A stretch of 64,000 nt of DNA, taken from NCBI GenBank assembly GCA_024614665.1, contig GCA_024614665.1_4861.1, one strand, 5' to 3'. Below are positions 17,405-64,000 of this stretch, in pieces. Within the stretch, counting starts at the first letter, position 1. Each line of letters opens with the position of its first letter. This stretch comes from a phage. Both the position numbers and the translations under genes were made by a program. The notes beneath the pieces were generated by a model that was not told where the DNA came from, searched no databases, and saw only the letters and a program-made list of their open reading frames with translations.

Positions 17405-17413
17405 GTATGCTCC

Positions 17414-25796: not shown

Positions 25797-25988
25797 TCAT
25801 GACCGTTCCCCTACATCTCGCCACTCACAACGTGTGTCGAACAGACGTTCTTTAAGAGCAGCAGCTAAATAAACAACCGCAGCGATAACCACTACGGTTG
25901 CACAAAAGGAGAGGTACAGTACCATCACAACAAACTGAAGGAACTGAAAACCCCACCAAGCCCATAAGCGCCAACCTTTATGATGCAT
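25797..25988 (-). CDS. small membrane protein (63 aa)
   Basis: Trp-rich hydrophobic N-terminus and second helix VVVIAAVVYLAAAL. Confidence 0.35.
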   Translation of the reverse strand: MHHKGWRLWAWWGFQFLQFVVMVLYLSFCATVVVIAAVVYLAAALKERLFDTRCEWRDVGERS

Positions 25989-30279: not shown

Positions 30280-30292
30280 GTTGTTTCCTTAC

Positions 30293-30703: not shown

Positions 30704-30725
30704 AATAGCACCTCAATTTTTTGAG

Positions 30726-37339: not shown

Positions 37340-37397
37340 AAAAAAAGATATAGGTACCCTACTCCCAACGGGAGTAGGGTTTACCTTTTATTTTTTT
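37340..37397. terminator. bidirectional intrinsic terminator
   Basis: A-run, stem ccctactcc/ggagtaggg, long T-run; between convergent genes. Confidence 0.6.
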
Positions 37398-42422: not shown

Positions 42423-42434
42423 GGAGATTTTTGA

Positions 42435-46577: not shown

Positions 46578-46578
46578 G

Positions 46579-46652
46579 ACGGACTGCCTACGGGCGGGTA
46601 GTCCGTAGGTAAACCGCCCTTCCGTTATTGGGAGGGCGGTCTCCGTTTTATT
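46579..46652 (+). terminator. tandem hairpins + T-run between fibre genes (terminator/attenuator)
   Basis: acggact...agtccgt stem then accgccct/agggcggt stem followed by CTCCGTTTTATT. Confidence 0.4.
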
Positions 46653-46672
46653 ACAGATTAGGAGTGTTTGCA

Positions 46673-49600
46673 ATGCCGAGAGAAGATGCGGCGCAGTTTA
46701 ACGGTACGCTCAGTACCGCTACTTACCCGAACCGTTATTCGGCGGTCATTCCCGTCGAAGCACCGTTCTATCGCATCGGGTTAACGTTAACCGTTACCGA
46801 TAAAACAACCGGAACCAAACGCAAGTTAATAGAAGGTCTTGATTATTTCTTAGGACATTACTTCCAGGAATTAGCCGAGGCTGAGAACGATGCAATATAC
46901 GGCAGCATAATGCTGCTGAACGCCACAGAGGTAGAATACGAGTTGTTGTCGGTTGGTCGACAGTATCGCATCCCTGCTTCTGAAATCGGCAAGTATCTGG
47001 TTAAGACAGATATGAAAGACCCGCGTAACTGCGATTGGTCTGAGCTGATGAAATATCCGCCGATTATCTCGCCAATCGACCCGCCAAAAGACCTCGAAGA
47101 AGCGATTCTTCGCGATGAAATCGTAAAGGCGTTGGAAGATATCCGTCTGGGTATTTTAGAGCGCGCCCACGAGCTGGATGAGGCTTTTGCCGAAGTTACC
47201 GATTTGATTTATCAGAACGGTAAGCAGGTGTTTGAAGATGAGATGTATCAGCACCACCTGGTTAAAAACGCACACGGTTACACCTGCGGTGATATTGGCG
47301 CTCTCCCGGTACTCGGCAAAGCCGTAGATGCGACTAAGGCATTCGGACGTACCCTGGCAGAGCTAGTGACGTTAATGTCTACCAGCGGCATCCAACAGAA
47401 ACACGTTGACATGCTTCTGGATAATACCCTGGGTGATTTACTGGGCCGTATGCGTGTTCTGAATAACGACGCGATTACGTTCCAAACAACGTCTGGTCAC
47501 GTTATCAGCATGAAGGGTGAGAAGTTCATCATCACCTCGACAAAACCGCTGGTATTAAAAGCTGACCAGGATAACAACGAACCGGGTATCGCTACGGAGT
47601 TCAGTGCTGGTCTGAACACGCTTTGGGTTCACTCGGGTAAAGCAGGTGACAAGTGGGGCGATTATGATGCGGGTGTGCTTGCACCTGTGTATAATAGCGT
47701 GTATCTCGTTACACCGGATATGGTTAAGATGTACTTGACCTCGGTGAAGATACTTCCAGCAAACGCCTACTTCAAGTCCAGCGACACGTTGAAGATTTAT
47801 GGCTCTGGTAAAGAAACAAACAAAGTTTACATGAATGCGGAGCTGCCTGCAGCAACCACAACTGTGCAGGGTTTGTTTGCGATTACTAACCTTTCGGCGT
47901 CCGCTGCATCGTCCACAGCGATTTCCCAAAAAGCTGTTACTGACTTGAAGAACAAACTCGACGGATATGTGGACGACACGTATACGGTCAACGGCAAAGG
48001 GTTTGTGTTAGACGAAAACGGTCAAATGCATTTAACCTTAACCGCGTCGGATTTCGGTATTGAGAAGATGAACAATACCGGGCCGCTGGAGAAACCGGTT
48101 ACTAATGCGTTGCGCACCGTGCTATCAGGCAAGGCACTCTCAACACACACCCACACCATTGCTGATCTCGATGACGTGCCGTACGCATCCACATCTGTTA
48201 CAGGTTTGGCTAAACTGTGGGATGCTATTGACACCACAACAGATAAGATGGTTACTGCCCGCCAGGGTTTCTTGCTCGAACAGAAGATCGGTACACTGAA
48301 CGACAAGATTGCTACGTTGTTGCCAGCATGGACCGTTGGCGGATCGTCGTACGGTAACAATAACTTCTTGCCTATACCTGTCCAGGGGAACTACGAAGGG
48401 TACACCAAAAACCAAACTTGGCAAAAAGGACTGGCGCGTTACGAGGCTGGTAAGGTTTACTCGTTGCGTAATGGTTCCAACGGTAACGCCCCTGCTGACT
48501 GGGCTATCTATTACGCCTATGCTGATGTGTCGCCAAGCAATACGCTGGAAAATATGCAGCAGACGTCCGTACGTTATCACCCCGCTGGAATGTCGGCGTA
48601 TCCTGGGGTGAATCTGGTTGCTATTCTGATTACCGGTACAGATGCAATGATCTGCTTAGGCAGTGACGGTGCGTATTACCTGGTCATCTTTGACGGCACC
48701 ATTGACCATGCAAAACATCATCGTGTTGTTAAAGTTTACTTGGGCGATTACCGAAATGGTAACGCGGCCGGTGTGATTACAACCGCACCATGGGTTGCCG
48801 ATCCATCAACAAACGATTTGATCGTTTGCAACGATCGGGTTTATCTGCTCCGTACTGTGCTTACCTCCGGTGACTATTTCGTGAGTATGCGTAGCATCGC
48901 ACTCGACGAACTTAATCTGGGTGGTAGCAACACGTTTGTGGCGGATGTGTTAACGGGTGGGATGTTAACGTCGGGAGATAATATCTACTTGCGTCAGGGT
49001 CAGAAACGTTCTGATACAGATGTGTTGGTAGCGCCAGTAACACAAATCTACGCAGACGCATCGGCGAAGTGGAATAGTGCGCGAAATTTCGTCCATGGTC
49101 CGGAATGTAATCACGCGATTGCTGTGGATGGGCTGAACTTTCGTGTTGGTTTAACGCCAACAGTCTGGTTTGCTTCTACTACAGGGCAAACTATTAACTT
49201 TAAACAATGGGTGTCAAGCTTTGTTGTTGATTGCAGTTCAATGACGGTAACGCTGGAAGGGGCTGATCGATTCCCTATTGTGGCTGATCTTACCGCGGTT
49301 CGTTATAACGGTGGTGCTGAGATTGGGATTCCGAGCTGGAAGTGGGGCGAAGGTCAAGCTAATAACCGAACCTTTGCAACATCGCAAGACAAGTATATTG
49401 TTTCGCAAGGACTTTCAGGCGATCGCGACCTAATGCCTTATGTCAGGATTACAACGTTAGATGACGGTGTGAGTTGGTACGAGTACCTGTCGTGCGACTA
49501 CAACTTCACTGCCAGAAGTTTTAGTGCGGTAATGTTAAACCAAGGACGTGGTTCTATCTACGAGCTGGGTATGGCGTATCCGCTGACTCTGGGAGCGAAT

Positions 49601-51856: not shown

Positions 51857-51903
51857 CAGATAGCGCTATGGGGCAAGGAAGCCCCAATCAAAGGAGTTTG
51901 GCA

Positions 51904-53106
51904 ATGGCCGAAATCATTTATCAGTACCCGCTCGACCTTACCGGGACATTAACGTCGAACGCCGTTACGCGGCGTATTACGTTAGGTTCTGGTAAAGTTA
52001 ACCGGGCTTTTGCATTTCCTGACGGAGCTTTCTACGCGGATACTTTCCGCTTAGCGGCTGCGAACAAACCGGGTGTCTACCCGTACAAACGTGGTACAGA
52101 CTACGAGCTGATTTTTGCACATACTGCATATCAGAAAATGACCAAGAACCGCGAAGTGGTCATGGGTGTGGTGGTAACTAACTCGGCCATTCCTACAGAT
52201 ATCGAAGTCTCTGCGCAAGTCGTTGGTGGTTTTCAGTCTGCGAACGTCGAAGGCATCCGACAAGCGATTGCGTCGTTGAAAATTGAAGACCGCGTGGTGG
52301 ACTTCAAGGATCTTCGGAACGTACCCGATACGTTCCCGTCCGCACCGACGTATAAAGACCTTGGCGATATCTACGGTTTTGAGTACATCATTACCGTGCT
52401 CGCGGGGATTAAAGATGCGATTAACTCCGGCTCTGCAGTACAGCTGGAAGAAATTAAAGGTATTCTGGACGGTCTGAAAAACGACTTCCTCGATGCCTTA
52501 AATACCCACATCAACGCCGAAGGTAACGTACACAATCTCGACATTCATCAGGTTAATGGCCTGACGGAGACGGAGATTCGTGCTCTGATTCAAAGTGTAC
52601 AGACTGCCATTGACGCCACTATCAGAGATATCGGCGACTTAAGAGCAGCAGACACGGCGTTGGGGCAACGCATCGATGCAGTTGTGGCTTCGTTAGCCGC
52701 GTGGAACGACCAGCTTAATGTAGTTGCTCAAAATTACCAGAAAATGTCGTTAGCATTAGCTAACCTTAATTCTCTGGTGTTGCAATTACAGAAGAAGGTT
52801 AATGATCTTCAGTCTGCGCTGAATGAAACAAATCAGCGTGTCACGGATCTTGAGAATCAAGGCAAAGACTTCCAACAGCAAATTGATAACCTGCAAGGAC
52901 AAATCAACAGTCTTAAAACTCAGGTTGTAAACAACACCAACGCAATTTCGCAGGCAAACCAGAATCTGGCGAACCATGCGGCTGCGGATAACCCACACCC
53001 GAATTACCTCCATAAACAGTATGGCGGTGTTGTGCAGGCTGCTGTTCACGTCAACAACAACCTCACCTCGCGCGACGATGTTCAAGCTGAAGCGGGTACT
53101 AAGTAA
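51904..53106 (+). CDS. fibre-like protein with shared N-terminal domain and C-terminal coiled coil (about 400 aa)
   Basis: Start at ATG with AAAGGAG RBS; N-terminus GAFYADTF...KRGTDYELIFAH; heptad-like Q/N/L-rich C-terminus. Confidence 0.5.
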   Translation: MAEIIYQYPLDLTGTLTSNAVTRRITLGSGKVNRAFAFPDGAFYADTFRLAAANKPGVYPYKRGTDYELIFAHTAYQKMTKNREVVMGVVVTNSAIPTDIEVSAQVVGGFQSANVEGIRQAIASLKIEDRVVDFKDLRNVPDTFPSAPTYKDLGDIYGFEYIITVLAGIKDAINSGSAVQLEEIKGILDGLKNDFLDALNTHINAEGNVHNLDIHQVNGLTETEIRALIQSVQTAIDATIRDIGDLRAADTALGQRIDAVVASLAAWNDQLNVVAQNYQKMSLALANLNSLVLQLQKKVNDLQSALNETNQRVTDLENQGKDFQQQIDNLQGQINSLKTQVVNNTNAISQANQNLANHAAADNPHPNYLHKQYGGVVQAAVHVNNNLTSRDDVQAEAGTK

Positions 53107-53113
53107 CTTGTTT

Positions 53114-53160
53114 ACGAGCCGGACTATGTTTATGGACATAGTCCGCTCGTTCTACTTTTT
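53114..53160 (+). terminator. intrinsic terminator separating fibre module from Cys-peptide cassette
   Basis: cggactatgt/acatagtccg stem, then TCTACTTTTT. Confidence 0.5.
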
Positions 53161-53171
53161 AAGGAAGCGTA

Positions 53172-53564
53172 ATGGCGATATCTATTAAAGACGTCAGAAA
53201 CCGCGTCCAGATAGTCGAAGCTAACATGGCGACAGGCCCCCGTATCGACGCGCAAGTGGCCTCTAAAGCCCATAACGCGGCAGACCGATTTGGGGGTTGG
53301 ACGAAAACACAGCTAGATTGCGGCGGGACATGTTCTTGGACGTGCTCTAACGGTTGCTCGCATGGCTGTTCGAGCTGTTCAGGAAGCTGTTCTGCTTCTT
53401 GTATCGGTAGCTGTTCTTCGACGTGTGGCGGTAACTGTTCTGGTTGCTCTGGTTGTTCTGGTGGTTGCAGTAGTAGCTGTACCGGTAACTGCACAGGTGG
53501 TTGCGGTGGCTCTTGTTCCGCAAACTGCTCCGGGGCCTGCTCCGGCGGCTGTTCAGGTCGCTAA
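53172..53564 (+). CDS. Cys-rich leader+core peptide A (130 aa), candidate RiPP precursor
   Basis: AAGGAAG RBS; leader-like N-terminus (ISIKDVRNRVQIVEAN); core has about 21 Cys at Cxxx spacing. Confidence 0.6.
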   Translation: MAISIKDVRNRVQIVEANMATGPRIDAQVASKAHNAADRFGGWTKTQLDCGGTCSWTCSNGCSHGCSSCSGSCSASCIGSCSSTCGGNCSGCSGCSGGCSSSCTGNCTGGCGGSCSANCSGACSGGCSGR

Positions 53565-53574
53565 GGGGGATTAA

Positions 53575-53979
53575 ATGGCAATTGGATTAAAAGAACTGAA
53601 TAACCGATTAAACACGATCGATGCAAACGCTCTAAAGAATACCACGAATGTGCAAAACTACATTCGCAATAAAGCTACGAATAACGCCGACTTGTTCGCA
53701 GGTCAAGGCCGTTCGCACTATGACTGTGGTGGCACATGCTCTTTTAGTTGCTCGAGTTGTTCTGGCGGATGTACTGGGTCTGCGACAGGTGGTTGTGGGT
53801 CGACTTGTTCGGCAAACTGTGTATCAGGCTGTAGCAGCAGCTGCACGGGCTGTAGCTCTTCGTGCTCTGGTGGTTGTAGCGGCACGTGCACAGGCAGCTG
53901 TTCTGGGGGTTGTGGTAAATCCTGCTCCGCAAACTGCTCAGGTGCGTGCTCTGGTGGTTGTTCAGGTCCTAACTCCTAA
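53575..53979 (+). CDS. Cys-rich leader+core peptide B (134 aa), candidate RiPP precursor
   Basis: AAGGGGGA RBS; leader (IGLKELNNRLNTIDAN); core about 20 Cys; C-terminus near-identical to peptide A (SCSANCSGACSGGCSG). Confidence 0.6.
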   Translation: MAIGLKELNNRLNTIDANALKNTTNVQNYIRNKATNNADLFAGQGRSHYDCGGTCSFSCSSCSGGCTGSATGGCGSTCSANCVSGCSSSCTGCSSSCSGGCSGTCTGSCSGGCGKSCSANCSGACSGGCSGPNS

Positions 53980-53994
53980 CTGACGGAGGCTTAT

Positions 53995-54201
53995 GTGATC
54001 AGTCTCAAGACTATTCGAAACCGTCTCGTTACGGCAGAAGGCTACATTACAACCGCGCAGGCAAACAACTATATCGCTAACCAGGGCACCGTGTCAACCA
54101 CGAACAACCTGGCTGGTTTACCGCTTTCTCACTATAACTGTAATGGTGGGTGTAGCTGGTCCTGCAGCGGAAGCTGTAGCCGTGGAGCGGGGAATCGATA
54201 A
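53995..54201 (+). CDS. short Cys-containing leader+core peptide C (68 aa), candidate RiPP precursor
   Basis: GTG start 5 nt after GACGGAGG; leader (ISLKTIRNRLVTAEGY); short core CNGGCSWSCSGSCS. Confidence 0.45.
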   Translation: MISLKTIRNRLVTAEGYITTAQANNYIANQGTVSTTNNLAGLPLSHYNCNGGCSWSCSGSCSRGAGNR

Positions 54202-54223
54202 CAGAAAACGTTCGGAGTATTAA

Positions 54224-55111
54224 ATGAAAAACGATTTGCATCTTGCGTATAAAACCACATTCAACCACCCGCTGCATCTATCTTCCCCAGATTCGGTGCG
54301 TGCACACCTCGCTGACAAAGTCAGACTGATTGCACAGATTCCTGGTGAGTGGCCAAAGGTTCGTGGTCGCTTCTTGACCGACAAGAAGAACTACACCGTA
54401 GAAAATACGTTTAAGATCCGTGATATGGTTGCAGAGGCCATCGTTATCTTTAACGGCGATGGTAACTCTCGCGGCGTGTTGGTTGACGGTAAGTATTTCT
54501 TCAGTGAAGGGATTCTGAACAACAGTGTCGATTTAGAACTGATGTTTACACCGTTTGACGAACTCGAAGCAAAACCGATGGCGCGCCGTTGGTGGAGTCC
54601 GGACTATCTGGGCTCGTTCCCTTACTACTTTGTACTGGTACCTGCCGATACGGAAACGTATTTCGACACCGAACCGTACATCGATATCGAGGGATATAAA
54701 GAACTCGGCATCACCCGTTTAGCGGACATGATGGCGTATAGCTATAAGTTCGTGTGGGATAAAAAGCGTTCTGTCTGGTATGCGCTGACTGACGATTTTG
54801 AAATCACCAAACGTATTCGTAAGCCGTGGATGCAACACCTGGTTCAAACCCGATATGGGGATTACCCGGCGACAGAAGCGGATTTGAGTAAGCTGGTAAG
54901 CTTCCTCTTAACGAAGGTGGATTTAACGAAAGAAGAAGCAGAAGCTGTTTCTGAGATTCGTAGTCGTTCGGTTACGTTGGCCGATTTGAAACGCTTGAAC
55001 GAAAGACATGCCGACCTGAACAAAATTTTAGCTGCCTATCACGACCCGATGTTACTGGTGCCTGGCGCTAATGTAGACGAAGATCCTTTATTCGCCATTG
55101 ATTATATTTAA
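54224..55111 (+). CDS. hypothetical protein in Cys-peptide/radical SAM cassette (295 aa)
   Basis: Between the peptide genes and the radical SAM genes; no motif recognised. Confidence 0.5.
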   Translation: MKNDLHLAYKTTFNHPLHLSSPDSVRAHLADKVRLIAQIPGEWPKVRGRFLTDKKNYTVENTFKIRDMVAEAIVIFNGDGNSRGVLVDGKYFFSEGILNNSVDLELMFTPFDELEAKPMARRWWSPDYLGSFPYYFVLVPADTETYFDTEPYIDIEGYKELGITRLADMMAYSYKFVWDKKRSVWYALTDDFEITKRIRKPWMQHLVQTRYGDYPATEADLSKLVSFLLTKVDLTKEEAEAVSEIRSRSVTLADLKRLNERHADLNKILAAYHDPMLLVPGANVDEDPLFAIDYI

Positions 55112-55133
55112 AAATATACTGGAGCAACCTGCA

Positions 55134-56048
55134 ATGACAGATCAAGTAGAATCCAGGATCTCGTCTGAACTGTACGACAAACCGTCAATTCTGTCGGTTG
55201 TCGCAACTTCTAAGTGTAACTTAGACTGTAGCTTCTGTGGAGGGGCTTATTACATGGATAGAGAAGATACTTCTCGTGAGTTTCAACGTGAAGAGATTCT
55301 CTCGATTTTAGAGAAGAATCCGGATATCGGTGAAATTCATTGGACGGGCGGTGAGCCGCTGTTAGCGCAGCGCAAGATTGAAGACTTCGTGAACGAGTTG
55401 AAGGAGTCTCATCCGAACCTCCGTCATCACATGTACACCAACGGTTTAAAGATGCGTAAATCACATCTGCCGTTGCTGAAACAGTTCGACCTTATCTTTG
55501 TGTCCATTGACGGCTACAAGAAGTCGGAACGTCCGTTTATGAACTTTGTAAACGGTGGTAATCACGAAGCGCTGGAAGTGCTGTACGAGCTGGACAACTA
55601 TTACACCTGGGGTGTGATGACGCGTGACCAGTTAGGTGATAAACGCTGGTACGAAGATTTCATCGAGCTGCACCGAGCAATCTATCATTACCGTCCAGGT
55701 GGTATGTCGTTGCTGTTTGATGCGATGATGCCGAAACCGTTATCGCCAGACCACGTCATGAACTTCATGTACGGGTATTGGAAAATACTCGACAATATCG
55801 AACGCCTTAACATGCAGAACGATTCTGAGTGTGGGCTTGCGATCAGTAAAATGTTCGATACTGAGTGCAACACGTGCAGTGAAGTGCTGTGGCTTAACGC
55901 CGACGGTACGCAGGAGCAAATTCAGAACGCCCCAGAGATATTGGAAGTCGGCTGTAATCGCCTGGCGCGTTCTATCGGCGTTGATGCGTATAACTACATC
56001 AACCGTGTAATTTCTGCTAAGCGTAAACGGGCGGCGAACAATGAGTAA
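55134..56048 (+). CDS. radical SAM enzyme 1 (about 304 aa)
   Basis: CNLDCSFC (CxxxCxxC) near N-terminus and IHWTGGEPLL; extra C-terminal Cys; ATG with GGAG RBS (track ORF begins at upstream TTG). Confidence 0.7.
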   Translation: MTDQVESRISSELYDKPSILSVVATSKCNLDCSFCGGAYYMDREDTSREFQREEILSILEKNPDIGEIHWTGGEPLLAQRKIEDFVNELKESHPNLRHHMYTNGLKMRKSHLPLLKQFDLIFVSIDGYKKSERPFMNFVNGGNHEALEVLYELDNYYTWGVMTRDQLGDKRWYEDFIELHRAIYHYRPGGMSLLFDAMMPKPLSPDHVMNFMYGYWKILDNIERLNMQNDSECGLAISKMFDTECNTCSEVLWLNADGTQEQIQNAPEILEVGCNRLARSIGVDAYNYINRVISAKRKRAANNE

Positions 56049-57369
56049 CAGCGAACAGCAAATCCAGTACACACCACGCACGTATCAGGTTGTGACTAAC
56101 CTGTCATGTAATCTGGACTGCGAATACTGCTACGAGCGTAAATATCCTCGTAACAACAAAGTAGCAGACGTGATTGATTTTATCCACGCTTGTTTCGAGC
56201 GTGATAAAGATATCCCGAACGTTGAGGTCATCATCGATATCATCGGTGGTGAGCCGTTCATGCAGCCTAAACTTCTTTTGGCGGCCTTTGAAACCGCAGA
56301 GAAGTTATGCGCAGAACACAATCGCCCGTATATGTTCAGTATCTCCACGAACGGTACACTTCTGGACCGTCCGCTGAACAAAGAAATTATCGAGCGCTGG
56401 AAAGACAAACTGTCTATTGGGGTCTCCATCGATGGTTTACCTGAAGTCCATGACAAATATCGTATCTTTACCACGACGCGTGAAGGGTCGTACGAAGCTG
56501 CGGTACGCGGTTACAATTATCTGAAGAGTGTTGGCATCGCTGAATTAGGCGTAAAGGCGACGTTTACGATCGATACATTGCCGCACTATGCCGCCAGCAT
56601 GAAATCGTTAATTGACATGTCCGGCGGTGGTACCATTTCTGGTAACGTAACGTACGAAGATATCCTGCCGCGCCATATGGCGTTGGATATCGCGAACCAG
56701 ATGATGGACGTGATGGACTACTGGATTGAGAAGGGTCTGCACACCAACCCGCGTAACACGATTACACACATCATCCCGGATGGCCTGAACTTTATGGCAA
56801 CTTGGGACCCGGATTGGCGTGACAAACTCTTACATGACGACTCTGTTCGTCTCGACCCAGAACGCCTGAAACCGTACTGCGGTACGTTGACGCACATGAC
56901 CTGTCTCGGCTTTGATCGCAAGATTTACGGTTGTAACCGTTTCATGTCCACGGTAACTTCCCGTTCTGCTGTAGCAGAACTGGTCGGTCGTGAGTTTGTG
57001 AGCCTGGACGGTGGTAAGTTGTTAGAAGAGATTCAAACACAGTACACCAACTACCCAGAAACCTGTTTAGGGTGTCCGATGAAACACAGTTGCGGTAGCT
57101 GCGCAGCAGCATCGTACGAAAACGGTGAAGGTACACTGGAAGACCGTAAAGCGTATCACGCCGAGCGTCGTCAGTGTGGTTGGACTACTGCGAAGCTGAT
57201 GGCGGCGGAATATTGGTATCAGAAAACTGGTACGACCCGCGCATCAGATTTGCATGATAAATCCATGTGCTATTGTTCACGTTGTGTACGCCAACGTGCT
57301 GAAGCAGAAAAATTACAAAACGGAGCCCAGAATGAAGTCAATACTGATTCACAATTTTACGAAGCGTAA
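56041..57369 (+). CDS. radical SAM enzyme 2 with SPASM-like C-terminal Cys cluster (442 aa)
   Basis: CNLDCEYC and IIGGEPFMQP; C-terminal CGTLTHMTC...CLGCPMKHSCGSC...CYCSRC; ATGAGTAA overlap with enzyme 1. Confidence 0.7.
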   Translation: MSNSEQQIQYTPRTYQVVTNLSCNLDCEYCYERKYPRNNKVADVIDFIHACFERDKDIPNVEVIIDIIGGEPFMQPKLLLAAFETAEKLCAEHNRPYMFSISTNGTLLDRPLNKEIIERWKDKLSIGVSIDGLPEVHDKYRIFTTTREGSYEAAVRGYNYLKSVGIAELGVKATFTIDTLPHYAASMKSLIDMSGGGTISGNVTYEDILPRHMALDIANQMMDVMDYWIEKGLHTNPRNTITHIIPDGLNFMATWDPDWRDKLLHDDSVRLDPERLKPYCGTLTHMTCLGFDRKIYGCNRFMSTVTSRSAVAELVGREFVSLDGGKLLEEIQTQYTNYPETCLGCPMKHSCGSCAAASYENGEGTLEDRKAYHAERRQCGWTTAKLMAAEYWYQKTGTTRASDLHDKSMCYCSRCVRQRAEAEKLQNGAQNEVNTDSQFYEA

Positions 57370-57898
57370 ACTGCACTTGGTCGATCGCTTCCTGCGCAAA
57401 AGCAAGCTGTACAATGTGCACGCAATTGTGGCAGGGGAAGACTTCACTGATGAAATCCAAAGCCTGTTGATTAAATACGGGCTGAATGTGATGATCCCGG
57501 TCTACTGCGTTGAGAAAGGACACGAGTCTGTCGCGGAAATCGAAAAGCGCAACCCCGGCTTTGAGAAGCGACTGCTTGCATACCCACGCCACAAAATCGA
57601 ACTGCTACGTCACTCTATTGATGAAGCCAGTCCTGAAAGTTTAGTGGCTTTGGGCTTGTCTTTCCCGCGGATGCGTATTCGTAACTTACGCTCCAATAAC
57701 CCGGTTGACGCTTATTACACAGAGCGTCAAATCTTCGAAGAACACCTGCTCCCGCAGTTGGAAGAAGAAGAGCAACACAACATTTCTCTGTTGTGGGCCG
57801 GTAACCTCGATCAGGACTTCCAGATGCTGGACTTCGGTTTGTTGTTAGAACTTGGCCTGATTGAGGAGGACGAATGTCTGTTACTGACAAAAGCTTAA
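57332..57898 (+). CDS. hypothetical protein in cassette (about 188 aa)
   Basis: Start at ATG with GGAG RBS (MKSILIHNF); overlaps end of radical SAM 2. Confidence 0.45.
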   Translation: MKSILIHNFTKRKLHLVDRFLRKSKLYNVHAIVAGEDFTDEIQSLLIKYGLNVMIPVYCVEKGHESVAEIEKRNPGFEKRLLAYPRHKIELLRHSIDEASPESLVALGLSFPRMRIRNLRSNNPVDAYYTERQIFEEHLLPQLEEEEQHNISLLWAGNLDQDFQMLDFGLLLELGLIEEDECLLLTKA

Positions 57899-58545
57899 CG
57901 AACGAAGAGATCCGCGCCCGTTATTTCCAGCGTGATTTGCCGATTGATCGTCACGGTAATTTCATGGAACGAATCGGTGCGCAGGATCAGGGCCGTACAG
58001 GCTTTTGCGCTCTGCTCCATTATCATCTCATCGAAGGGATGTCTGATAAAGAAGCCCTGGCACGCATGAAGCTGTATGAGATGTCGGAGATTGAAGCTAA
58101 CTTCACATTGAAACGCACGAAAGAGTTTATTGCTAATGTGCTGGAGATTGACCTCGACGAAATTCGCGGGAATCTGAAATCTACCGCACGTTACATTTAC
58201 GAAGACGTGCAGAAGATGCTGTTGGAGCTTGACCACCGCTACGAAGATGAGCGTCATGGTTATATCGAGTTTGAAGGTAGTCACTTTCAAGCCGATGAAT
58301 CGTCGCGTACCATCCTCGGTCAATACATTCAGGCAGATACCGCACCAGAATACTGGCTCGATACGCTGAATACTAAGCACAGTCCGTTTACAGTAGCCCA
58401 ATGTAAAGCGTTGCTGGCCGCTATTGTTGCACGTGACCAAGTGTTGCACTCAGCAATGGCAGATAACAAACGCCATATCCGTGAGTTAGCTGAAAAGCGC
58501 GATTACACTGGATTAAAAACATTGTCCGAATCTCTCGGCATTTAA
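57874..58545 (+). CDS. hypothetical protein in cassette (223 aa)
   Basis: GGAGGA RBS; followed by bidirectional terminator. Confidence 0.45.
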   Translation: MSVTDKSLTNEEIRARYFQRDLPIDRHGNFMERIGAQDQGRTGFCALLHYHLIEGMSDKEALARMKLYEMSEIEANFTLKRTKEFIANVLEIDLDEIRGNLKSTARYIYEDVQKMLLELDHRYEDERHGYIEFEGSHFQADESSRTILGQYIQADTAPEYWLDTLNTKHSPFTVAQCKALLAAIVARDQVLHSAMADNKRHIRELAEKRDYTGLKTLSESLGI

Positions 58546-58547
58546 GC

Positions 58548-58602
58548 AAAGAAAATAAAGGCCCTACCTCCCTTCGGGGAGGTAGGTACCTTATTTTATT
58601 TC
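58548..58602. terminator. bidirectional intrinsic terminator
   Basis: A-rich run, stem cctacctccc/gggaggtagg, T-run CCTTATTTTATTTC. Confidence 0.6.
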
Positions 58603-59153: not shown

Positions 59154-59280
59154 GGTTGTTTCCTTATAGTAGGTTTGTGGTGCATACTAAATCGTTCTAA
59201 AAAAAATACATAGTGGGCTTAATATGACAGTAAAGTTGACTGTTAAACGAGAAAATTATTTACCACTGAAAGGATACCTT

Positions 59281-59772
59281 ATGAAACGTCTATTTATCGT
59301 ATTCGCGATTATAAACCTGTTGGCCGGTTGTGTTCAGTCGCCAAGCAACATAGGGCAATTTAGCGCCACACCGGTAAAGAATCACGACTTGGTGATTTAT
59401 ACATGCACAGGGACGCAGGAGAAGTTTGTAGACTACCGTCCGGTTCTGGACAACCTACAAATGATGCCGCGGTCAGTAACAGTATTGGATGTGGGTGCAA
59501 ACTGGGTAGCAACGTGGGACGGCGGCAAACTAGAGTCGCCGATGATGTTTAAAGACATGATCGGCAAAATCGACGGGAATGTTAACACCACCACGGGCGA
59601 GCGTTATTACCGTATTAATAAAACCGTAAACGATGGCCCCACTTATTCTTTTTCGGATGTGAACCCGCATACCGGGGAAGGTAAAGGGATGACGTTCTTT
59701 CGCTGCAATGGCGGCCTTATTGACGAAGTTCCTACCCCGATTACGATTGTTCCGTTAGAAGAAAATAAATAG
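59281..59772 (+). CDS. putative lipoprotein (about 163 aa)
   Basis: ATG with AAAGGA RBS; MKRLFIVFAIINLLAGC = signal peptide + lipobox LAGC; own terminator. Confidence 0.5.
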   Translation: MKRLFIVFAIINLLAGCVQSPSNIGQFSATPVKNHDLVIYTCTGTQEKFVDYRPVLDNLQMMPRSVTVLDVGANWVATWDGGKLESPMMFKDMIGKIDGNVNTTTGERYYRINKTVNDGPTYSFSDVNPHTGEGKGMTFFRCNGGLIDEVPTPITIVPLEENK

Positions 59773-59774
59773 TG

Positions 59775-59818
59775 CTTACCCACTCCCGTAAGGGGAGTGG
59801 GTAAGGGCTTTATTTACC
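59775..59818 (+). terminator. intrinsic terminator
   Basis: cttacccactccc-gtaa-ggggagtgggtaag then GGCTTTATTT. Confidence 0.55.
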
Positions 59819-59897
59819 CTCTAAAACGCTCTGTAACGCTCTCTAAAAGCGCTAAACGTATTAGATGATAAATTATATTACTTTTGATTAAAGTAGC

Positions 59898-60413
59898 TTA
59901 GATTTTAACTAGCTTGCTCCAATCGATGGGTTGTTGTTTTACCACTTTAACGGTACCACGCGTTGGTGACCAGAAGGTGATATCAGGCTGGTTGCGTACG
60001 TCAACATGCAGCCAGGTAATATCGCACTCGATAAAGTGAATAAACGGAAACTCGTTAGGGTTCGCGGCAATATAGTCGTGTACTTTCTGCAACGGAGTAT
60101 CAAGCATTGTTGCATCAAACGCATTACCGAATTTATGCATACTGCCTGATTCCGCGTACAGTTTGTTTGCACGAGTTTGCCAATCGCCACCCTTTGGTTT
60201 CTCTTGATTAATAAAGAACTGCAGGGTACGCAGACTACGCTGTTGCTGGGAACTGGTTAAAATCACCATCCGCCCAAAACGATTACGAATCTGTTGGAGC
60301 GAGATTAGCAGTAACGGATTAAGGAAACGAATAGCGCCTTCACCGTATTTCGCGATGTACTCCTGCGGCATCAACTCTTTTAACGCGAAGTTGGCAGGAT
60401 TCGGATGAAACAT
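59898..60413 (-). CDS. LAS-type metallopeptidase (peptidase M15-like) cell-wall hydrolase
   Basis: SMHKFGNAFD (H-x6-D) and WLHVDV motifs as in M15/VanY-type zinc peptidases. Confidence 0.5.
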   Translation of the reverse strand: MFHPNPANFALKELMPQEYIAKYGEGAIRFLNPLLLISLQQIRNRFGRMVILTSSQQQRSLRTLQFFINQEKPKGGDWQTRANKLYAESGSMHKFGNAFDATMLDTPLQKVHDYIAANPNEFPFIHFIECDITWLHVDVRNQPDITFWSPTRGTVKVVKQQPIDWSKLVKI

Positions 60414-60422
60414 TTTCTCTCC

Positions 60423-61064
60423 TTAAGGGGCAGTCAGGAACGCACGTTTGATATTCAAATACTGCACGTTTACCGGTTGCCCATTAGTGATGTCAACACG
60501 TTCGTGTTCAGGAATCGCTAACGTATGCGACGTTCTAAAGAACAGGTAGTTGCGATTATAGGACAGCGTCTTTTCTACCGGCCGACTATAAACCACCTTA
60601 GAGTTATCGTCTACATAGGACGGCCAACCAAACTCGTGAACGGCACGGTAGAAGGACTTACGAATAAAAGTGTCAACGCCTAATGCCTCCATGATGCGTA
60701 AGAACATCAGGTCAGCGAATGTTTTGTCGCAAGCACGAGATAGATTACCTTCAGCGGTGTCAGGGTAAAAGCCTACCGATGAACGTTTCTGGTAAAACAA
60801 ATCATGCACACAAGCGGCAGCAGCCCAAGGGCCATCCGGATGCAGGATAGGACGTAACGCTTCTGGAATACTTGCCAGGTCCGTTACAAATCCTTTCGGC
60901 ACCGTTACCCATAACGGAGTATCCGGATGTACACCTGATAATGCTACCATCGCATCCATTCCGGTGTGTTCACGATACAAGCTGCGCAACGTAAACTCGA
61001 AATGGAAATCATCCGTGAGAATAAACCACGGCTTCTCTAACAACTTATACTTAAGTGCTTCCAT
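60423..61064 (-). CDS. DUF1353-like protein (213 aa)
   Basis: VPKGFVTDLASIP ... CVHDLFY matches the DUF1353 FxTDxASIP...HDxxY pattern as I recall it. Confidence 0.45.
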   Translation of the reverse strand: MEALKYKLLEKPWFILTDDFHFEFTLRSLYREHTGMDAMVALSGVHPDTPLWVTVPKGFVTDLASIPEALRPILHPDGPWAAAACVHDLFYQKRSSVGFYPDTAEGNLSRACDKTFADLMFLRIMEALGVDTFIRKSFYRAVHEFGWPSYVDDNSKVVYSRPVEKTLSYNRNYLFFRTSHTLAIPEHERVDITNGQPVNVQYLNIKRAFLTAP

Positions 61065-61352
61065 ACTGGCCTCACGTCATATAACGCACGAGCATCGTGA
61101 GCGCCATCAATCCCAGTAAAATGGGTATTAAGCCTTTCGGCCAGTCGTCGTTGTCGTATTGCATGGCTTTACCCTCCGACAGAAGATCGCACGTAATAGT
61201 TTGAAGAACCCAGAATCGTAATACGTTTCCGGAACGGTTCGTACTTCAGGGAACATAGGCGGAGTTGGACGGTGGGTCATTACGTTTTCTCCTTGCGGCA
61301 AACACAAGGGCACGCCAGATAGCTTTCATTAAGGTAGCAAACCAATTCTGTT

Positions 61353-61970
61353 TCATTTGCACATCCCCAACTTAGCCGCGTAGTCTGGCATTTCCTGATA
61401 GACGCGCCCATACCAGCCGTAAGTAAACTCTTCGTTATCCTCACGCCTTTCACTGATTTCCGTGTAGTACGCTACCTGATGACAGGTTAAAGCGAACATC
61501 AGTCGATTCAGGCCCTCTTCCCCACGAGCTTTGATAAAGCCTTCTAACGCTGTTAACGTACGTGGACCAATACCGCCATCTGCTTCGATGTCGTCGTACA
61601 GTTTACCCTGACGGTTTAATACGTTCAGAATACGCTGCAGGGACTTGATACAGTTGCCACGACCTGCGTTGATGCCGAAATCAAACATCCGGTCAGCTAG
61701 CAGGACATTCATTTTCATAATCTGGTCTAAGCGCATCCGCTGCCACCAGAGCTTGTTGTAAATGTCTAACGCGGTTTCTAGGCTCAGGTCACGCATATCC
61801 CCTTTATAGCCATATTCACGCGCCGTGAGTTCGGTGACACCACGGTTCGTTGCTTTACCCAAATCTTTCGGGTTATTAACGTAACCGGCTTCGATGTTTA
61901 CTTTGGCACGAATAATGCCCTCTTTACTCCAACGATCGACCACGATAACCTCCTGAGTTGATAGGGTCAT
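61353..61970 (-). CDS. endolysin-like: GH108-type muramidase with PG_binding_3-like C-terminal domain
   Basis: IEAGYVNNPKDLGKATNRGVT resembles GH108 EGGYVNDP...GIT; DGGIGPRTLTAL resembles peptidoglycan-binding motif; start at internal ATG (MTLSTQ), since the longer track ORF runs through a terminator hairpin. Confidence 0.55.
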   Translation of the reverse strand: MTLSTQEVIVVDRWSKEGIIRAKVNIEAGYVNNPKDLGKATNRGVTELTAREYGYKGDMRDLSLETALDIYNKLWWQRMRLDQIMKMNVLLADRMFDFGINAGRGNCIKSLQRILNVLNRQGKLYDDIEADGGIGPRTLTALEGFIKARGEEGLNRLMFALTCHQVAYYTEISERREDNEEFTYGWYGRVYQEMPDYAAKLGMCK

Positions 61971-62002
61971 AAAAAGAAAGCCTCTTCCCCGTGGGGAAGA
62001 GG
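61971..62002 (-). terminator. intrinsic terminator abutting endolysin start
   Basis: cctcttcc/ggaagagg stem followed on minus strand by CTTTCTTTTT then ATG. Confidence 0.45.
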
Positions 62003-62048
62003 GCATGGGTTATCCTCAGGCTTTAACCCCGTCAAGTTCCTCGTTAAA

Positions 62049-63998
62049 TTATGATAACGATTTCTTTGGCCGCTCCCACGGTTTAGGGGCGGATTTGGTA
62101 TACGGATTACATTCCATCATCTTGCCGAGATACGCATCGTAATACACGAAGCGATCGACATAGAACCTCTCCACCGGTGCACTACTGGTAGCCGATTTCA
62201 CCCGGTTGCGTTCCACAGCGAGGTTAATCGTCCCGGTAGGCGCGGGTTTTAGCGTGAACATCACCGCACGGTTGTAACGCCAAGTGTCGTGCACAATATC
62301 AAACTCCGATACACTGTGTGCCATGATACCAAACAATGTGGTGCTCGGTAAATTGGCTACAGCATCACCGTATGGTGTTCCCACCAAACCGCCGGGTAAG
62401 TTTTGCTTTTTGAACAGCGTACCTGAAATAATCGTACCTAAGAACTCCACAACTACAGGCTTGGTTGGGTCGGTGACTTTATCTATCCCATCCGCACTGG
62501 CCAATCTGTTGGCATCTAAATCTGCGAGGTAGTCGAGGAACTCTTGGTACTCGTCGGTGACATTCGGTTTCACCGTTCCGACGGATACCCAGTTGACGAT
62601 ACTTTTATTCCCACCGACAGCTTCGCCTGCCATCCCAGGGCGAGTCCATGACATCCCGTCTTCACGACCGTAGACATAGACTGGCGAGCCGGTAGCCGGG
62701 GTGTTCCATTGCTCGAACGCTGTATATCGTCCCGGCTGGCCCCAATCCCCACCCGGACCGCCATAGTAGCGACTCTGGTAGCCGGTAAATTGTGCGACGA
62801 CTAACTGGGTAGCACCGCCTTTGTCACGGGACCCAGCTAAGCCGTTACGGTTATTGGTGCCACTGGGTACCGCCGCGCCTGGCCCGAGTGGCGCACCACC
62901 AGCTCCACCGATCTTGGTGGTGCTAAACGCATAGTAGTCGCCCCCACCCCCACCACCGGCGATGGTGCCGTAGTTTTCGATGGTGACTTTGCCACGGAAG
63001 GTATCGCTAATGTGGATTGCGTCAGCTCCGTCCGCTGATGTGTTCGCAGGCAGTGAATAGACCATGCCCGAACCACCGCGACCAAGAATGGTTCCCCGGT
63101 TAACGAAGTTCCAAACCACCTCGCCAATTTGCGGCAATTCATCGATAACGAACGTCGGTTTCAGGTTGCTGTCGCGATAAACGAAAGCCCCCGCATCTAC
63201 GGTCACGTTAACAAACAAACGCCCGCACGCCGCATGGTTGGTCAACGTCGTGGCCCAGTAGCTGTCCGAAACTTGCGACGTAGTTGTGTAGTTCAGGTTA
63301 AGGGTTTGCTCGTTATCTTGATAGCGTGCCACATTCAACGTGGCGTTGCCCATGACTTTGTACGAACCCTCTACGGGTGCCAATTGCACTTGTCTTGGCC
63401 ACTCGCCTTCCAGGTTCTCTACAGGAGCAATTTCGTTTACATCAAAAACACCCCGAATGCCGAGTGTCTCGATGGCCAGAGCATCGTGCAGGCTACCGGT
63501 GAAATCATCCGGGACGTATGTGGTTTTGCCTGCATATGTCTCGAGTTTGTTACGTGAGAAGAACACATACTTCGTTCCAAACATCCCGCTCCCCGGTCTA
63601 GCGGTCAAAGCTACGACGCTGTTATACGCAGAGGTTTGGCCTATATCCTCCGGGGACATCGGGGCACTGACATCGACTTTATCAAGATCCACGATCCGTT
63701 TGGTTGCATTAGAGTAGAAGTTAATCCACTGCTGTTTATTCGCAGCCTTTAGCGTGAGAATGATGTTGGTAACAGTGTAGACGGTGTTGATATCCACGTC
63801 ACCGTTTATCACATCTAGCGTTTGGCTGCCGTACCAGATAAGACTTGTCTGTTTCGCCTGGAACGTGATGCGCGCAGCATTGTTTGTCCAAGTGATGGGC
63901 AGGTCTTCAAAGTCGTCGGTTAAAAAGGTAATCCCTAGTAGAGTGTCTAAATGCGGCAACAGTTCGTGGATGGACGCACAAGTGGGAATGGCATCCAA
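62049..63998 (-). CDS. structural (tail/fibre-like) protein with Gly-rich segments, N-terminus possibly beyond window end
   Basis: Long ORF reaching window edge; Gly-rich stretches (GTIAGGGGGGDYY, GGAGGAPLGPG); function inferred only from composition and context. Confidence 0.45.
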   Translation of the reverse strand: MDAIPTCASIHELLPHLDTLLGITFLTDDFEDLPITWTNNAARITFQAKQTSLIWYGSQTLDVINGDVDINTVYTVTNIILTLKAANKQQWINFYSNATKRIVDLDKVDVSAPMSPEDIGQTSAYNSVVALTARPGSGMFGTKYVFFSRNKLETYAGKTTYVPDDFTGSLHDALAIETLGIRGVFDVNEIAPVENLEGEWPRQVQLAPVEGSYKVMGNATLNVARYQDNEQTLNLNYTTTSQVSDSYWATTLTNHAACGRLFVNVTVDAGAFVYRDSNLKPTFVIDELPQIGEVVWNFVNRGTILGRGGSGMVYSLPANTSADGADAIHISDTFRGKVTIENYGTIAGGGGGGDYYAFSTTKIGGAGGAPLGPGAAVPSGTNNRNGLAGSRDKGGATQLVVAQFTGYQSRYYGGPGGDWGQPGRYTAFEQWNTPATGSPVYVYGREDGMSWTRPGMAGEAVGGNKSIVNWVSVGTVKPNVTDEYQEFLDYLADLDANRLASADGIDKVTDPTKPVVVEFLGTIISGTLFKKQNLPGGLVGTPYGDAVANLPSTTLFGIMAHSVSEFDIVHDTWRYNRAVMFTLKPAPTGTINLAVERNRVKSATSSAPVERFYVDRFVYYDAYLGKMMECNPYTKSAPKPWERPKKSLS

Positions 63999-64000
63999 CT

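What the first reader, a model, noticed from the sequence alone, without database searches (positions are those of the whole stretch)
59224..59822. Isolated plus-strand lipoprotein gene with its own terminator among minus-strand structural/lysis genes
Seen: a 163-aa lipoprotein ORF (lipobox LAGC) on the opposite strand from both neighbours, with AAAGGA RBS and its own hairpin terminator. Established: phage T5 encodes a lipoprotein (Llp) next to its receptor-binding protein gene that blocks the receptor for superinfection exclusion. Inference: candidate receptor-masking or exclusion lipoprotein.
Basis: partly seen in the sequence, partly recalled or inferred. Interest (0 to 1): 0.45.

Follow-up and report, generated by a model that had tools for sequence, protein, structure and literature searches.

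The report
Orphan outer-membrane lipoprotein of jumbo phage
This is a real, conserved gene of a giant SPN3US-like Salmonella phage that makes a small barrel-shaped lipoprotein for the host's outer membrane. It is not part of the virus particle and is unrelated to known phage lipoproteins, so the suggested role in blocking phage entry remains plausible but unproven.

Summary
ATG 59281..59772 (+) encodes a 163-aa lipoprotein precursor with an AAAGGA ribosome-binding site and lipobox LAGC (Cys17). A -31 kcal/mol hairpin (59775-59805) follows it, but that terminator is shared with the convergent gp158 gene.

The window is an SPN3US-like jumbo phage, and the gene is the orthologue of SPN3US gp159 ('hypothetical protein'). 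It belongs to a very small family, about 16 clusters in 5.8 billion proteins. All members come from enterobacterial jumbo phages related to SPN3US (Erwinia phages, Goslar).

- The lipobox Cys and two further Cys are invariant down to 26% identity.
- AlphaFold (pLDDT 83) gives an all-beta barrel-like domain with no close structural relative.
- It has no homology to T5 Llp or to the phiKZ o-spanin.
- It has no adjacent i-spanin, and the window carries a separate candidate spanin pair.
- gp159 is absent from the published SPN3US virion proteome.
- A conserved TATG(AC) element 40-58 nt upstream suggests a phage late promoter, unlike early T5 llp.

Its surroundings are host-recognition and cell-wall genes: a Gp38-adhesin-like gp155, and in Goslar a tail fibre plus tail-fibre assembly protein directly upstream.

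An entry-blocking or progeny-protecting role is the best guess (about 0.3) and is untested. The frequent C-terminal Lys allows a speculative Lpp-like link to peptidoglycan.

The parts
59223..59226 (+). Candidate phage late-promoter core TATG. The predicted +1 is G59226, giving a 55-nt leader. A TATG on the opposite strand (59212->59209) faces gp160.
   Evidence: A TATG, mostly TATGAC, lies 40-58 nt upstream of the start in 9 of 10 family loci, although the rest of the spacer is not conserved. The background is 0.001-0.004 per nt. The phiKZ late-promoter core is T-3ATG+1 (PMC7598289). This is an inference; no transcript data exist.
59269..59274 (+). Shine-Dalgarno sequence AAAGGA, 6 nt before the ATG
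   Evidence: Read directly from the sequence.
59281..59772 (+). Coding sequence of 163 codons plus TAG: lipoprotein precursor, orthologue of SPN3US gp159 (SPN3US_0159 / YP_009153453.1)
   Evidence: The protein is 97.5% identical to SPN3US gp159. PHROG 9559 matches at E = 6e-83.
59281..59328 (+). Type II (lipoprotein) signal peptide, residues 1-16: K2 and R3, the hydrophobic core LFIVFAIINLL, and lipobox residues L14-A15-G16
   Evidence: A PROSITE-like lipobox pattern matches. The feature is aligned and conserved in 15-18 homologues.
59329..59331 (+). Cys17, the acylated N-terminus of the mature protein. The +2 residue is Val, not Asp, which predicts outer-membrane sorting.
   Evidence: Cys17 is an invariant column. 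The +2 residue is V, A, S, T or K across the family and never D. Outer-membrane sorting is inferred from the E. coli '+2 rule'.
59350..59721 (+). Predicted all-beta barrel-like domain (precursor residues 24-147), with invariant Cys42 (59404-59406) and Cys142 (59704-59706) as a likely disulfide
59722..59769 (+). Low-confidence Pro-rich C-terminal tail ending in Lys163 (...VPTPITIVPLEENK)
   Evidence: pLDDT is below 50 here. The tail varies in length and sequence across the family. The last residue is Lys in about 11 of 16 lineages, against 17% of this phage's proteins.
59775..59815 (.). Bidirectional intrinsic terminator (13-bp GC-rich stem, 5-nt loop, T-tract), shared with the convergent gp158 gene
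   Evidence: Hairpin terminators directly follow the stop codon in all six homologous loci examined.

Best explanation
The gene makes a non-virion lipoprotein that is probably expressed late.

What the sequence evidence indicates:
- The precursor has a type II signal peptide and a lipobox, so it should be exported and lipidated at Cys17.
- It has no Asp at +2, so the Lol pathway should send it to the inner leaflet of the outer membrane.
- It would then present a small, probably disulfide-stapled beta-barrel-like domain to the periplasm.
- Lipoprotein character, family conservation, fold class, absence from virions, lack of a spanin partner and lack of homology to known families are all backed by tool results or published data.

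What is inferred: the barrel binds a host envelope component from the periplasmic side of the outer membrane. The likeliest target is an outer-membrane protein used as the terminal receptor or entry site. The infected cell and its outer-membrane debris would then no longer trigger adsorption or ejection by sister or competing phages. In outcome this resembles T5 Llp, with emphasis on protecting progeny at and after lysis, because expression looks late. The protein family is unrelated to Llp.
For: - Lipoprotein signal, conserved throughout the family.
- Confident all-beta barrel-like model whose nearest matches are small barrels, including periplasmic and surface lipoproteins (NHBA, TbpB, fHbp, YceI, PliC).
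- gp159 is absent from SPN3US virion mass spectrometry, while gp160, gp155 and gp158 are detected.
- It is a self-contained transcription unit with promoter-like TATG, RBS and terminator in the homologous loci examined.
- The spanin role is plausibly filled elsewhere, by the pair 17414-17929 / 16925-17404.
- Host-recognition context: gp155 has a GP38 adhesin domain (66.6 bits). The fibre genes and the DUF4376 protein gp161 lie upstream. The Goslar homologue directly follows a tail fibre and a Caudo_TAP gene.
- It is the fastest-diverging gene of its module: 57.6% identity against 67-88% for its neighbours, window versus SPAsTU.
- Its two sequence types split exactly as the presence or absence of the Gp38-like segment of gp155 does.
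- The gene is accessory: CR5-like relatives lack it.
Against: - No homology in sequence or fold to Llp, and no Pfam, NCBIfam or PADLOC family matches.
- The immediate neighbours are a head protein and a peptidase, not a receptor-binding protein.
- Late-type promoter signals contrast with the early expression typical of exclusion genes.
- The reported receptor of SPN3US is the flagellum.
- The protein is 93-99% identical in phages listed on Salmonella, E. coli and Proteus.
- Synteny within this phage clade is generally conserved, so gene neighbourhood is weak functional evidence.
- No phenotype data exist.
Confidence: 0.3

Rival explanations
1. Lysis accessory or regulator of cell-wall hydrolases. 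The periplasmic barrel would bind and restrain, or position, a peptidoglycan hydrolase until lysis. The hydrolase could be the phage's own GH108 endolysin gp156, the M15-like gp158, or the tail lysin of a superinfecting phage. T4 Spackle and the MliC/PliC inhibitors work this way.
For: - The gene converges on the gp155-gp158 operon, which holds two hydrolase genes.
- The lipoprotein converges on a gp158-like gene in the most divergent member, L011, and in L021. In L007 and L008 one to three other genes lie between them.
- Late-promoter signals fit a lysis gene.
Against: - gp158 and gp159 do not co-occur. CR5-like phages have gp158 but no lipoprotein. 27 Erwinia records carry the lipoprotein against only 8 that carry a detectable gp158.
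- No Pfam family matched any of 15 family members at E <= 5, and the MliC/PliC signature motifs, as I recall them, are not seen.
- The PliC and ACP scores are lower than those of unrelated barrels.
Confidence: 0.15
2. Outer-membrane spanin subunit (o-spanin), or another direct agent of outer-membrane disruption in the last step of lysis.
For: It is an outer-membrane lipoprotein with conserved Cys residues, in a phage of a Gram-negative host, near endolysin genes, and probably late.
Against: - No i-spanin gene is upstream or overlapping. [quoted passage not shown]
- The mature domain is a confidently folded 124-residue barrel with about 7% Pro (my count from the sequence), not a short Pro-rich unstructured peptide.
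- Only the signal peptide aligns with the validated phiKZ o-spanin gp141.1.
- There is no C-terminal transmembrane segment, so it is not a unimolecular spanin.
- The window has a better candidate pair: 17414-17929 (N-terminal transmembrane segment plus a charged stretch) followed by the lipoprotein gene 16925-17404.
Confidence: 0.05
3. Lpp-like tether between outer membrane and peptidoglycan. Host L,D-transpeptidases would couple the C-terminal Lys of the flexible tail to meso-DAP. The phage protein would then add outer-membrane-to-wall staples late in infection, or compete with Lpp for them.
For: - The last residue is Lys in about 11 of 16 lineages, although the tail varies from 1 to about 37 residues and is otherwise unconserved. 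The background is 17% in this phage.
- In Dickeya a C-terminal Lys is necessary and sufficient for Ldt-mediated attachment. The 'Lpp box' tolerates substitutions and works when grafted onto a periplasmic reporter (10.1101/2024.09.03.610988).
Against: - Five lineages do not end in Lys, including close relatives of Lys-ending ones: Caitlin, P0011, P0014, P0023, P0024.
- More than 20% of E. coli periplasmic proteins and lipoproteins end in Lys anyway.
- In P0015 and P0018 the Lys follows the barrel directly and may not reach the wall.
- There is no Lpp-like coiled coil.
- Shared ancestry inflates the count.
Confidence: 0.1
4. A ligand-binding or signalling lipoprotein with some other envelope role. 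It could bind lipid or polyisoprenoid like YceI or the lipocalins, or interfere with envelope-stress sensing.
For: The fold class is shared with YceI, a Bacteroides lipid-binding protein, nitrobindin and the lipocalins. Nothing ties the protein firmly to any known phage function.
Confidence: 0.15

Closest known systems
T5 Llp (lytic conversion lipoprotein) and Cor-type exclusion lipoproteins of T1, phi80 and N15
   Same: All are phage-encoded outer-membrane lipoproteins of phages infecting Enterobacterales. All are non-virion and have their own transcription unit. This gene is divergent from a late structural gene and lies in or near the host-recognition region. In Goslar it sits directly after the tail-fibre genes.
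   Different: - No sequence or fold similarity.
- The mature protein is 147 residues, against 61 for Llp.
- It is not adjacent to a receptor-binding gene in this window.
- Promoter signals suggest late rather than early expression.
- The target is unknown and no phenotype has been shown.
o-spanins (lambda Rz1, phiKZ gp141.1)
   Same: All carry an outer-membrane lipoprotein signal and periplasmic Cys residues, and belong to lytic phages of Gram-negative hosts. Like them, this gene is probably late.
   Different: It has no cognate i-spanin next to it. Its domain is a folded barrel rather than a short Pro-rich peptide. It has no homology to phiKZ gp141.1. A separate candidate spanin pair lies at 16925-17929.
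Small 8-stranded beta-barrel lipoproteins of bacteria (MliC/PliC lysozyme inhibitors, NHBA, TbpB and fHbp barrel domains, YceI)
   Same: They share the fold class: an up-and-down barrel hung from a lipid anchor or exported to the periplasm. The barrels act as binding modules, and MliC/PliC also carry a disulfide (from my own knowledge).
Braun lipoprotein Lpp and Dickeya OutB (proteins linked to peptidoglycan through a C-terminal Lys)
   Same: All combine an envelope anchor with a flexible C-terminal end that terminates in Lys. Lpp is also an outer-membrane lipoprotein.
   Different: This protein has no coiled coil and no YRK- or KK-type box. The Lys is not universal in the family. Attachment has not been tested.

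Membership tests
Bacterial lipoprotein precursors (Lgt/LspA/Lnt substrates) | Positively charged N-region, hydrophobic core, lipobox [LVI][ASTVI][GAS]C with the Cys at positions 15-35 | tested here: met
   The signal peptide reads MKRLFIVFAIINLLAG|C and Cys17 matches the pattern. The lipobox Cys is an invariant column in 15-18 homologues down to 26% identity.
Bacterial lipoprotein precursors (Lgt/LspA/Lnt substrates) | Actual lipidation and outer-membrane localisation | not testable with these tools
   The only available evidence is the +2 rule: Val here, and A, S, T or K in relatives, never Asp. Palmitate labelling, globomycin treatment and membrane fractionation are needed.
T5 Llp / Cor superinfection-exclusion lipoproteins | Sequence or fold homology to Llp | tested here: not met
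T5 Llp / Cor superinfection-exclusion lipoproteins | Gene placed next to the receptor-binding protein gene | tested here: inconclusive
   In the window the neighbours are the head protein gp160 and the peptidase gp158. The Gp38-like gp155 lies 2.3 kb away, and the fibre-gene block that ends with gp161 stops 0.7 kb away. In Goslar the homologue is directly downstream of a tail fibre and a Caudo_TAP gene.
T5 Llp / Cor superinfection-exclusion lipoproteins | Blocks the phage's own receptor (exclusion or adsorption phenotype) | not testable with these tools
   This needs expression in the host followed by adsorption and plating assays. The only related point is that gp159 is not in the virion table.
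Two-component spanin, o-spanin subunit | Gene embedded in, overlapping, or immediately downstream of an i-spanin gene | tested here: not met
   The next gene upstream is the oppositely oriented gp160, a head protein. The nearest same-strand upstream gene is the DUF4376 protein gp161. The criterion is taken from PMC12894885.
Two-component spanin, o-spanin subunit | Short, Pro-rich, largely unstructured periplasmic domain, or homology to a validated o-spanin | tested here: not met
   The domain is a 124-residue barrel whose 10-residue block pLDDT means are 84-96. Pro makes up about 7% of the mature protein (my count from the sequence). Only the signal peptide aligns with phiKZ gp141.1.
Unimolecular spanin (T1 gp11 type) | Lipoprotein signal plus a C-terminal transmembrane segment | tested here: not met
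   The C-terminus ...EVPTPITIVPLEENK is polar and Pro-rich and has no hydrophobic segment.
MliC/PliC lysozyme inhibitors | Family signature by sequence (Pfam model), together with the 8-stranded barrel fold | tested here: not met
Lpp-type peptidoglycan-linked proteins | C-terminal Lys on an accessible end | tested here: inconclusive
   Lys163 ends a low-confidence tail. Lys is terminal in about 11 of 16 lineages, with five exceptions. The covalent link itself cannot be tested here.
Virion structural proteins of SPN3US | Detection in purified particles by mass spectrometry | tested here: not met
   gp159 is absent from Table S4 of PMC5105663. That table lists gp155 and gp160, and Table 5 lists gp158 with 2-3 spectra. 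A lipidated low-abundance protein could still escape detection.

The most novel reading that the evidence does not exclude
A phage-encoded outer-membrane lipoprotein that host L,D-transpeptidases staple covalently to peptidoglycan through its conserved C-terminal Lys, as they do Braun's lipoprotein. Made late in a jumbo-phage infection, it would rewire the tethering between outer membrane and cell wall. It could hold the envelope together and suppress receptor-bearing vesicles until lysis, or it could compete with Lpp to prime the outer membrane for rupture.
Probability: 0.1. Interest if true: 0.7.

Novelty: new variant of a known kind. Interest (0 to 1): 0.33.

Why it matters
How nucleus-forming jumbo phages deal with superinfection, and whether lysed-cell debris inactivates their progeny, has received little study. 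No paper in the held library mentions SPN3US gp159, and a search for jumbo-phage lipoproteins in superinfection exclusion found nothing on this family. This gene is a clean, small, non-essential-looking candidate in a genetically tractable model, SPN3US on Salmonella.

If it blocks an outer-membrane entry factor, it would define a second, structurally unrelated family of Llp-like proteins. It would also point to the terminal receptor of a phage known only as flagellotropic, and the Gp38-like gp155 nearby hints that this receptor is an outer-membrane protein.

If instead it is wall-tethered or regulates lysins, it would add a new component to jumbo-phage lysis biology. In either case it is an accessory gene of one clade, not a core function.

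Tried and rejected
- The first AlphaFold run, with a 5-sequence alignment, failed (pLDDT 35). It succeeded only after distant members were added.
- The afdb50 fold library was not available.
- Pfam, NCBIfam, PADLOC and the PDB sequence search gave nothing for the protein.
- The annotation 'DUF2846' on one Erwinia homologue was not reproduced by Pfam on family members.
- The SPN3US infected-cell proteome paper (Weintraub 2019), which could have shown expression and timing, is not held.
- No held paper mentions SPN3US gp159. One badly framed literature search returned only human lipoprotein papers.
- A k-mer search for an AT-rich early-promoter motif in the window's intergenic regions found only terminator T-runs, so 'not early' is not proven.
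- The idea that gp159 is a dedicated inhibitor of gp158 was weakened because the two genes do not co-occur across phages.
- My first guess that 62049-63998 is a tail fibre was contradicted by mass spectrometry placing gp155 in tailless heads. It does carry a GP38 adhesin domain, however.
- The search for related loci failed with the broad alignment and found nothing for P0014. Other IMG/VR scans added only close relatives with the same synteny.
- The candidate spanin pair shows no similarity to phiKZ gp141 or gp141.1. This is expected for spanins and is not informative.

Full report
**What the window is.** The 2-kb region around the finding is 94-98% identical to SPN3US-like jumbo phages of Salmonella, E. 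coli and Proteus (genus Seoulvirus). The target ORF corresponds to SPN3US_0159 (gp159, YP_009153453.1), annotated 'hypothetical protein', and the protein is 97.5% identical to SPN3US gp159.

**Checking the observation.**
- The sequence shows ATG at 59281, AAAGGA at 59269-59274, the signal peptide MKRLFIVFAIINLLAG|C with lipobox LAGC, and a stop at 59770-59772.
- The mechanical ORF start at 59224 is an upstream in-frame ATG. Every homologue begins at the equivalent of 59281.
- Both flanking genes are on the minus strand.
- The hairpin 59775-59805 is a strong terminator-like structure: -31.2 kcal/mol, z = -5.9. It scores on both strands and also lies at the 3' end of the convergent gene 59898-60413, so it is shared.
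- The gene sits where a plus-strand block (38718-58545) meets a minus-strand block (59898-64000).

**Is it a real lipoprotein gene?**
- It matches PHROG 9559 at E = 6e-83.
- Searches of 5.8 billion proteins and of 1.8 billion representatives return only about 14-16 clusters.
- tblastn against phage genomes finds it in 66 records. These are SPN3US-like phages, Erwinia jumbo phages (Asesino/phiEaH2, Wellington/Kwan, Machinavirus) and E. coli phage Goslar at 30% identity.
- In alignments of 15-18 members down to 26% identity, the invariant columns include the lipobox Cys17 and two further Cys, C42 and C142. That pattern fits a periplasmic disulfide.
- The residue after the lipid-modified Cys is never Asp. 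By the enterobacterial sorting rule this predicts the outer membrane.
- UniProt already names some Erwinia homologues 'Lipoprotein'.

**Fold.**
- A 5-sequence alignment gave no usable model (pLDDT 35).
- With 15 diverse members the mature protein modelled at pLDDT 82.6 and pTM 0.74. It has ten strands, 10-residue block means of 84-96 across the core, a disordered N-terminal linker and a disordered Pro-rich tail.
- Foldseek finds no PDB match below E = 0.01.
- In the viral structure library only its own family matches well. A few small uncharacterised phage proteins match weakly.
- The domain is therefore a new sequence family with a common binding-module fold.

**Known families tested.**
- T5 Llp: I recovered the Llp sequence exactly. 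Its structures are in the PDB. The profile comparison aligns only the signal peptides, and Llp is absent from the listed fold matches.
- Spanins: a recent study validated the phiKZ lysis cassette and states that the o-spanin gene is invariably the next gene after the i-spanin.
  - Here the upstream neighbour is an inverted head-protein gene.
  - The domain is folded rather than short and Pro-rich.
  - Only the signal peptide aligns to phiKZ gp141.1.
  - The window also holds a textbook-looking pair elsewhere: 17414-17929 (N-terminal transmembrane segment, charged stretch, Pro-rich tail), followed 9 nt later by the lipoprotein gene 16925-17404.
- Pfam, NCBIfam and PADLOC give no match for the query. 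Pfam gives none for 15 family members scanned individually.

**Virion or not.** In the published SPN3US particle proteomes, gp160 (18.5 kDa) is an abundant protein that stays in tailless particles. gp155 is also in that head fraction. gp158 gives 2-3 spectra and is lost with the tail. gp159 is not listed.

**Expression.**
- In the six homologous loci whose flanks I read, a hairpin terminator follows the stop codon.
- A TATG lies 40-58 nt before the start codon in 9 of 10 loci, and it is TATGAC in six of them: the window, SPAsTU, Wellington and three Machinavirus phages. The rest of the spacer differs, and TATG occurs at only 0.001-0.004 per nt.
- TATG with G as +1 is the only conserved element of phiKZ late promoters, and all four bases are required in vitro.
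- In the window this element is 59223-59226. A second TATG on the opposite strand (59212->59209) faces gp160, which as an abundant head protein should be late.
- In the most divergent member (L011) the gene follows a run of DUF7941 structural genes after a 13-nt gap. In L007 and L008 it sits co-linearly among large uncharacterised genes, one of them related to gp160 in my reading.
- I therefore infer late, phage-polymerase-driven expression. This is not proven, and I could not derive an early-promoter motif from this window.
- By my own knowledge T5 llp and the T4 imm and sp genes are early. Late timing therefore shifts the likely benefit from classical exclusion towards events at and after lysis.

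**Context.**
- Upstream on the plus strand lie the large baseplate/fibre proteins (38718-53106, corresponding to SPN3US gp170-gp167).
- Next come three Cys-rich small proteins, two radical SAM enzymes, and gp161 (DUF4376, with a weak PHROG 'tail protein' match).
- The converging minus-strand genes run gp155 to gp158.
  - gp155 combines a DUF7941 N-terminus with a Pfam GP38 tail-fibre-adhesin domain (66.6 bits against a cut-off of 25).
  - gp156 is a GH108 plus PG_binding_3 endolysin.
  - gp157 is a DUF1353 protein.
  - gp158 is an M15-like peptidase. Its sequence contains H-x6-D and W-x-H-x-D, which I read as LAS-type zinc-peptidase motifs. Its homologues serve as annotated endolysins in small Vibrio phages.
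- In Goslar the homologue lies directly after a gpS-like tail fibre and a Caudo_TAP assembly protein, on the same strand.
- CR5-like relatives keep gp158, DUF1353 and the radical SAM genes but lack the lipoprotein. Four gp160-like paralogues fill its slot.
- gp158 and gp159 therefore do not co-occur, which weakens a dedicated inhibitor-enzyme pairing.
- Between the window and SPAsTU, gp159 is the most diverged gene of the module: 57.6% against 67-88%.
- The Gp38-like segment of gp155 occurs only in the SPN3US-proper group. That same group carries the SPN3US-type gp159 at 93-99% identity. SPAsTU and pEa29 lack the segment and have a gp159 about 60% identical. This is a two-group correlation and no more.

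**Interpretation.**
- Well supported: a late, non-virion, outer-membrane-anchored periplasmic barrel lipoprotein. It is an accessory gene of one clade of enterobacterial jumbo phages and is unrelated to Llp, Cor, spanins and lysozyme inhibitors.
- Inferred function: among experimentally known roles of phage outer-membrane lipoproteins, spanins and receptor blockers, the spanin role is disfavoured.
  - A receptor- or entry-blocking role remains the best single guess (0.3). It probably serves to keep progeny from wasting themselves on infected cells and debris.
  - SPN3US is reported to use flagella. Flagellotropic phages still need a surface entry site, and the Gp38-like domain of gp155 hints at an outer-membrane protein.
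- Rivals are a lysis or lysin-regulating role (0.15), some other ligand-binding role (0.15), an Lpp-like wall tether (0.1), and a spanin (0.05).

**The Lpp-like reading.** The last residue is Lys in about 11 of 16 lineages, although the tails vary greatly. The background is 17% in this phage's proteins. A Dickeya study shows that a C-terminal Lys is necessary and sufficient for attachment by L,D-transpeptidases, and that the preceding box tolerates substitutions. The same paper notes that more than 20% of E. coli periplasmic proteins end in Lys. Five family lineages lack the Lys. I therefore keep this only as the most novel reading not excluded.

**Verdict.** The gene is a new, unrelated variant of a known kind, phage outer-membrane lipoproteins, and is of moderate interest. 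The experiments listed under next steps are cheap and decisive.

Noticed in passing
window 16925-17929 (-): Probable two-component spanin pair that all matching phage records annotate as hypothetical. 17414-17929 (171 aa) has an N-terminal transmembrane segment (VTLVIVALIAFSAFVSYAYIV), a charged stretch and a Pro-rich tail. It is followed 9 nt later by 16925-17404 (159 aa), which has the lipobox LLTGC|P. Homologues occur in SPN3US-like, Erwinia and CR5-like jumbo phages. There is no sequence similarity to phiKZ gp141 or gp141.1.
   Followed up: partly
window 53172-57369 (+): Three tandem small proteins (53172-53564, 53575-53979, 53995-54201) share a conserved N-terminal region of about 45 residues and have Cys/Gly/Ser-rich C-termini (CSGxCSxxC-type repeats). 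They sit just upstream of a hypothetical gene (54224-55111) and two radical SAM genes (55098-56048, 56041-57369). The layout resembles a peptide-modification (RiPP-like) cluster next to the tail-fibre genes. It is conserved in Erwinia and CR5-like relatives.
   Followed up: partly
window 62049-63998 (-), ORF runs off the window end: The gp155 orthologue combines a DUF7941 N-terminus with a Pfam GP38 'tail fibre adhesin' Gly-rich domain (nt 62568-63110; 66.6 bits). Published mass spectrometry nevertheless finds gp155 in tailless (head) particles. The adhesin-like segment is confined to the SPN3US-proper group. It may be an adhesin displayed on the head, or the head/tail assignment may need review.
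   Followed up: partly
window 29896-31605 (-): A run of four small proteins each has an N-terminal signal peptide (127, 136, about 163 and 133 aa). The last one has a lipobox-like LAAC|G. Their PHROG families cross-match (8968, 17072, 5248), so three of them at least look like paralogues exported to the periplasm. All are of unknown function.
   Followed up: partly
window 59898-60413 (-): gp158 is annotated hypothetical in SPN3US. Its sequence contains H-x6-D (HKFGNAFD) and W-x-H-x-D (WLHVD), which I read as LAS/M15-type zinc-peptidase motifs. Its homologues are annotated as endolysins in small Vibrio phages and also occur in KVP40-like phages. In SPN3US virions it gives only 2-3 spectra and is lost with the tail. 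Together with the GH108 gp156, the phage therefore has two wall hydrolases in one operon.
   Followed up: partly
window 58563-58586 and several intergenic regions: A second bidirectional hairpin terminator lies between the convergent gp161 and gp160 genes. TATG elements 28-62 nt upstream of start codons also precede other genes: 175-597, 5348-5818, 9382-10137, 25978-28488, 37388-38650, 38718-42422, 53172-53564 and gp160. These are candidate phiKZ-type late promoters.
   Followed up: no
related records (SPFM phage genomes; protein P0013): Many Salmonella phage SPFM records match in 3-27 short pieces per gene, and their 'proteins' (P0005-P0009) match in about 8 stretches. This indicates frameshift-rich assemblies rather than real variants. 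Separately, a 76-aa fragment of this lipoprotein is deposited as a Salmonella enterica protein on a contig of about 240 kb. I take that contig to be an SPN3US-like phage genome inside a bacterial assembly.
   Followed up: no
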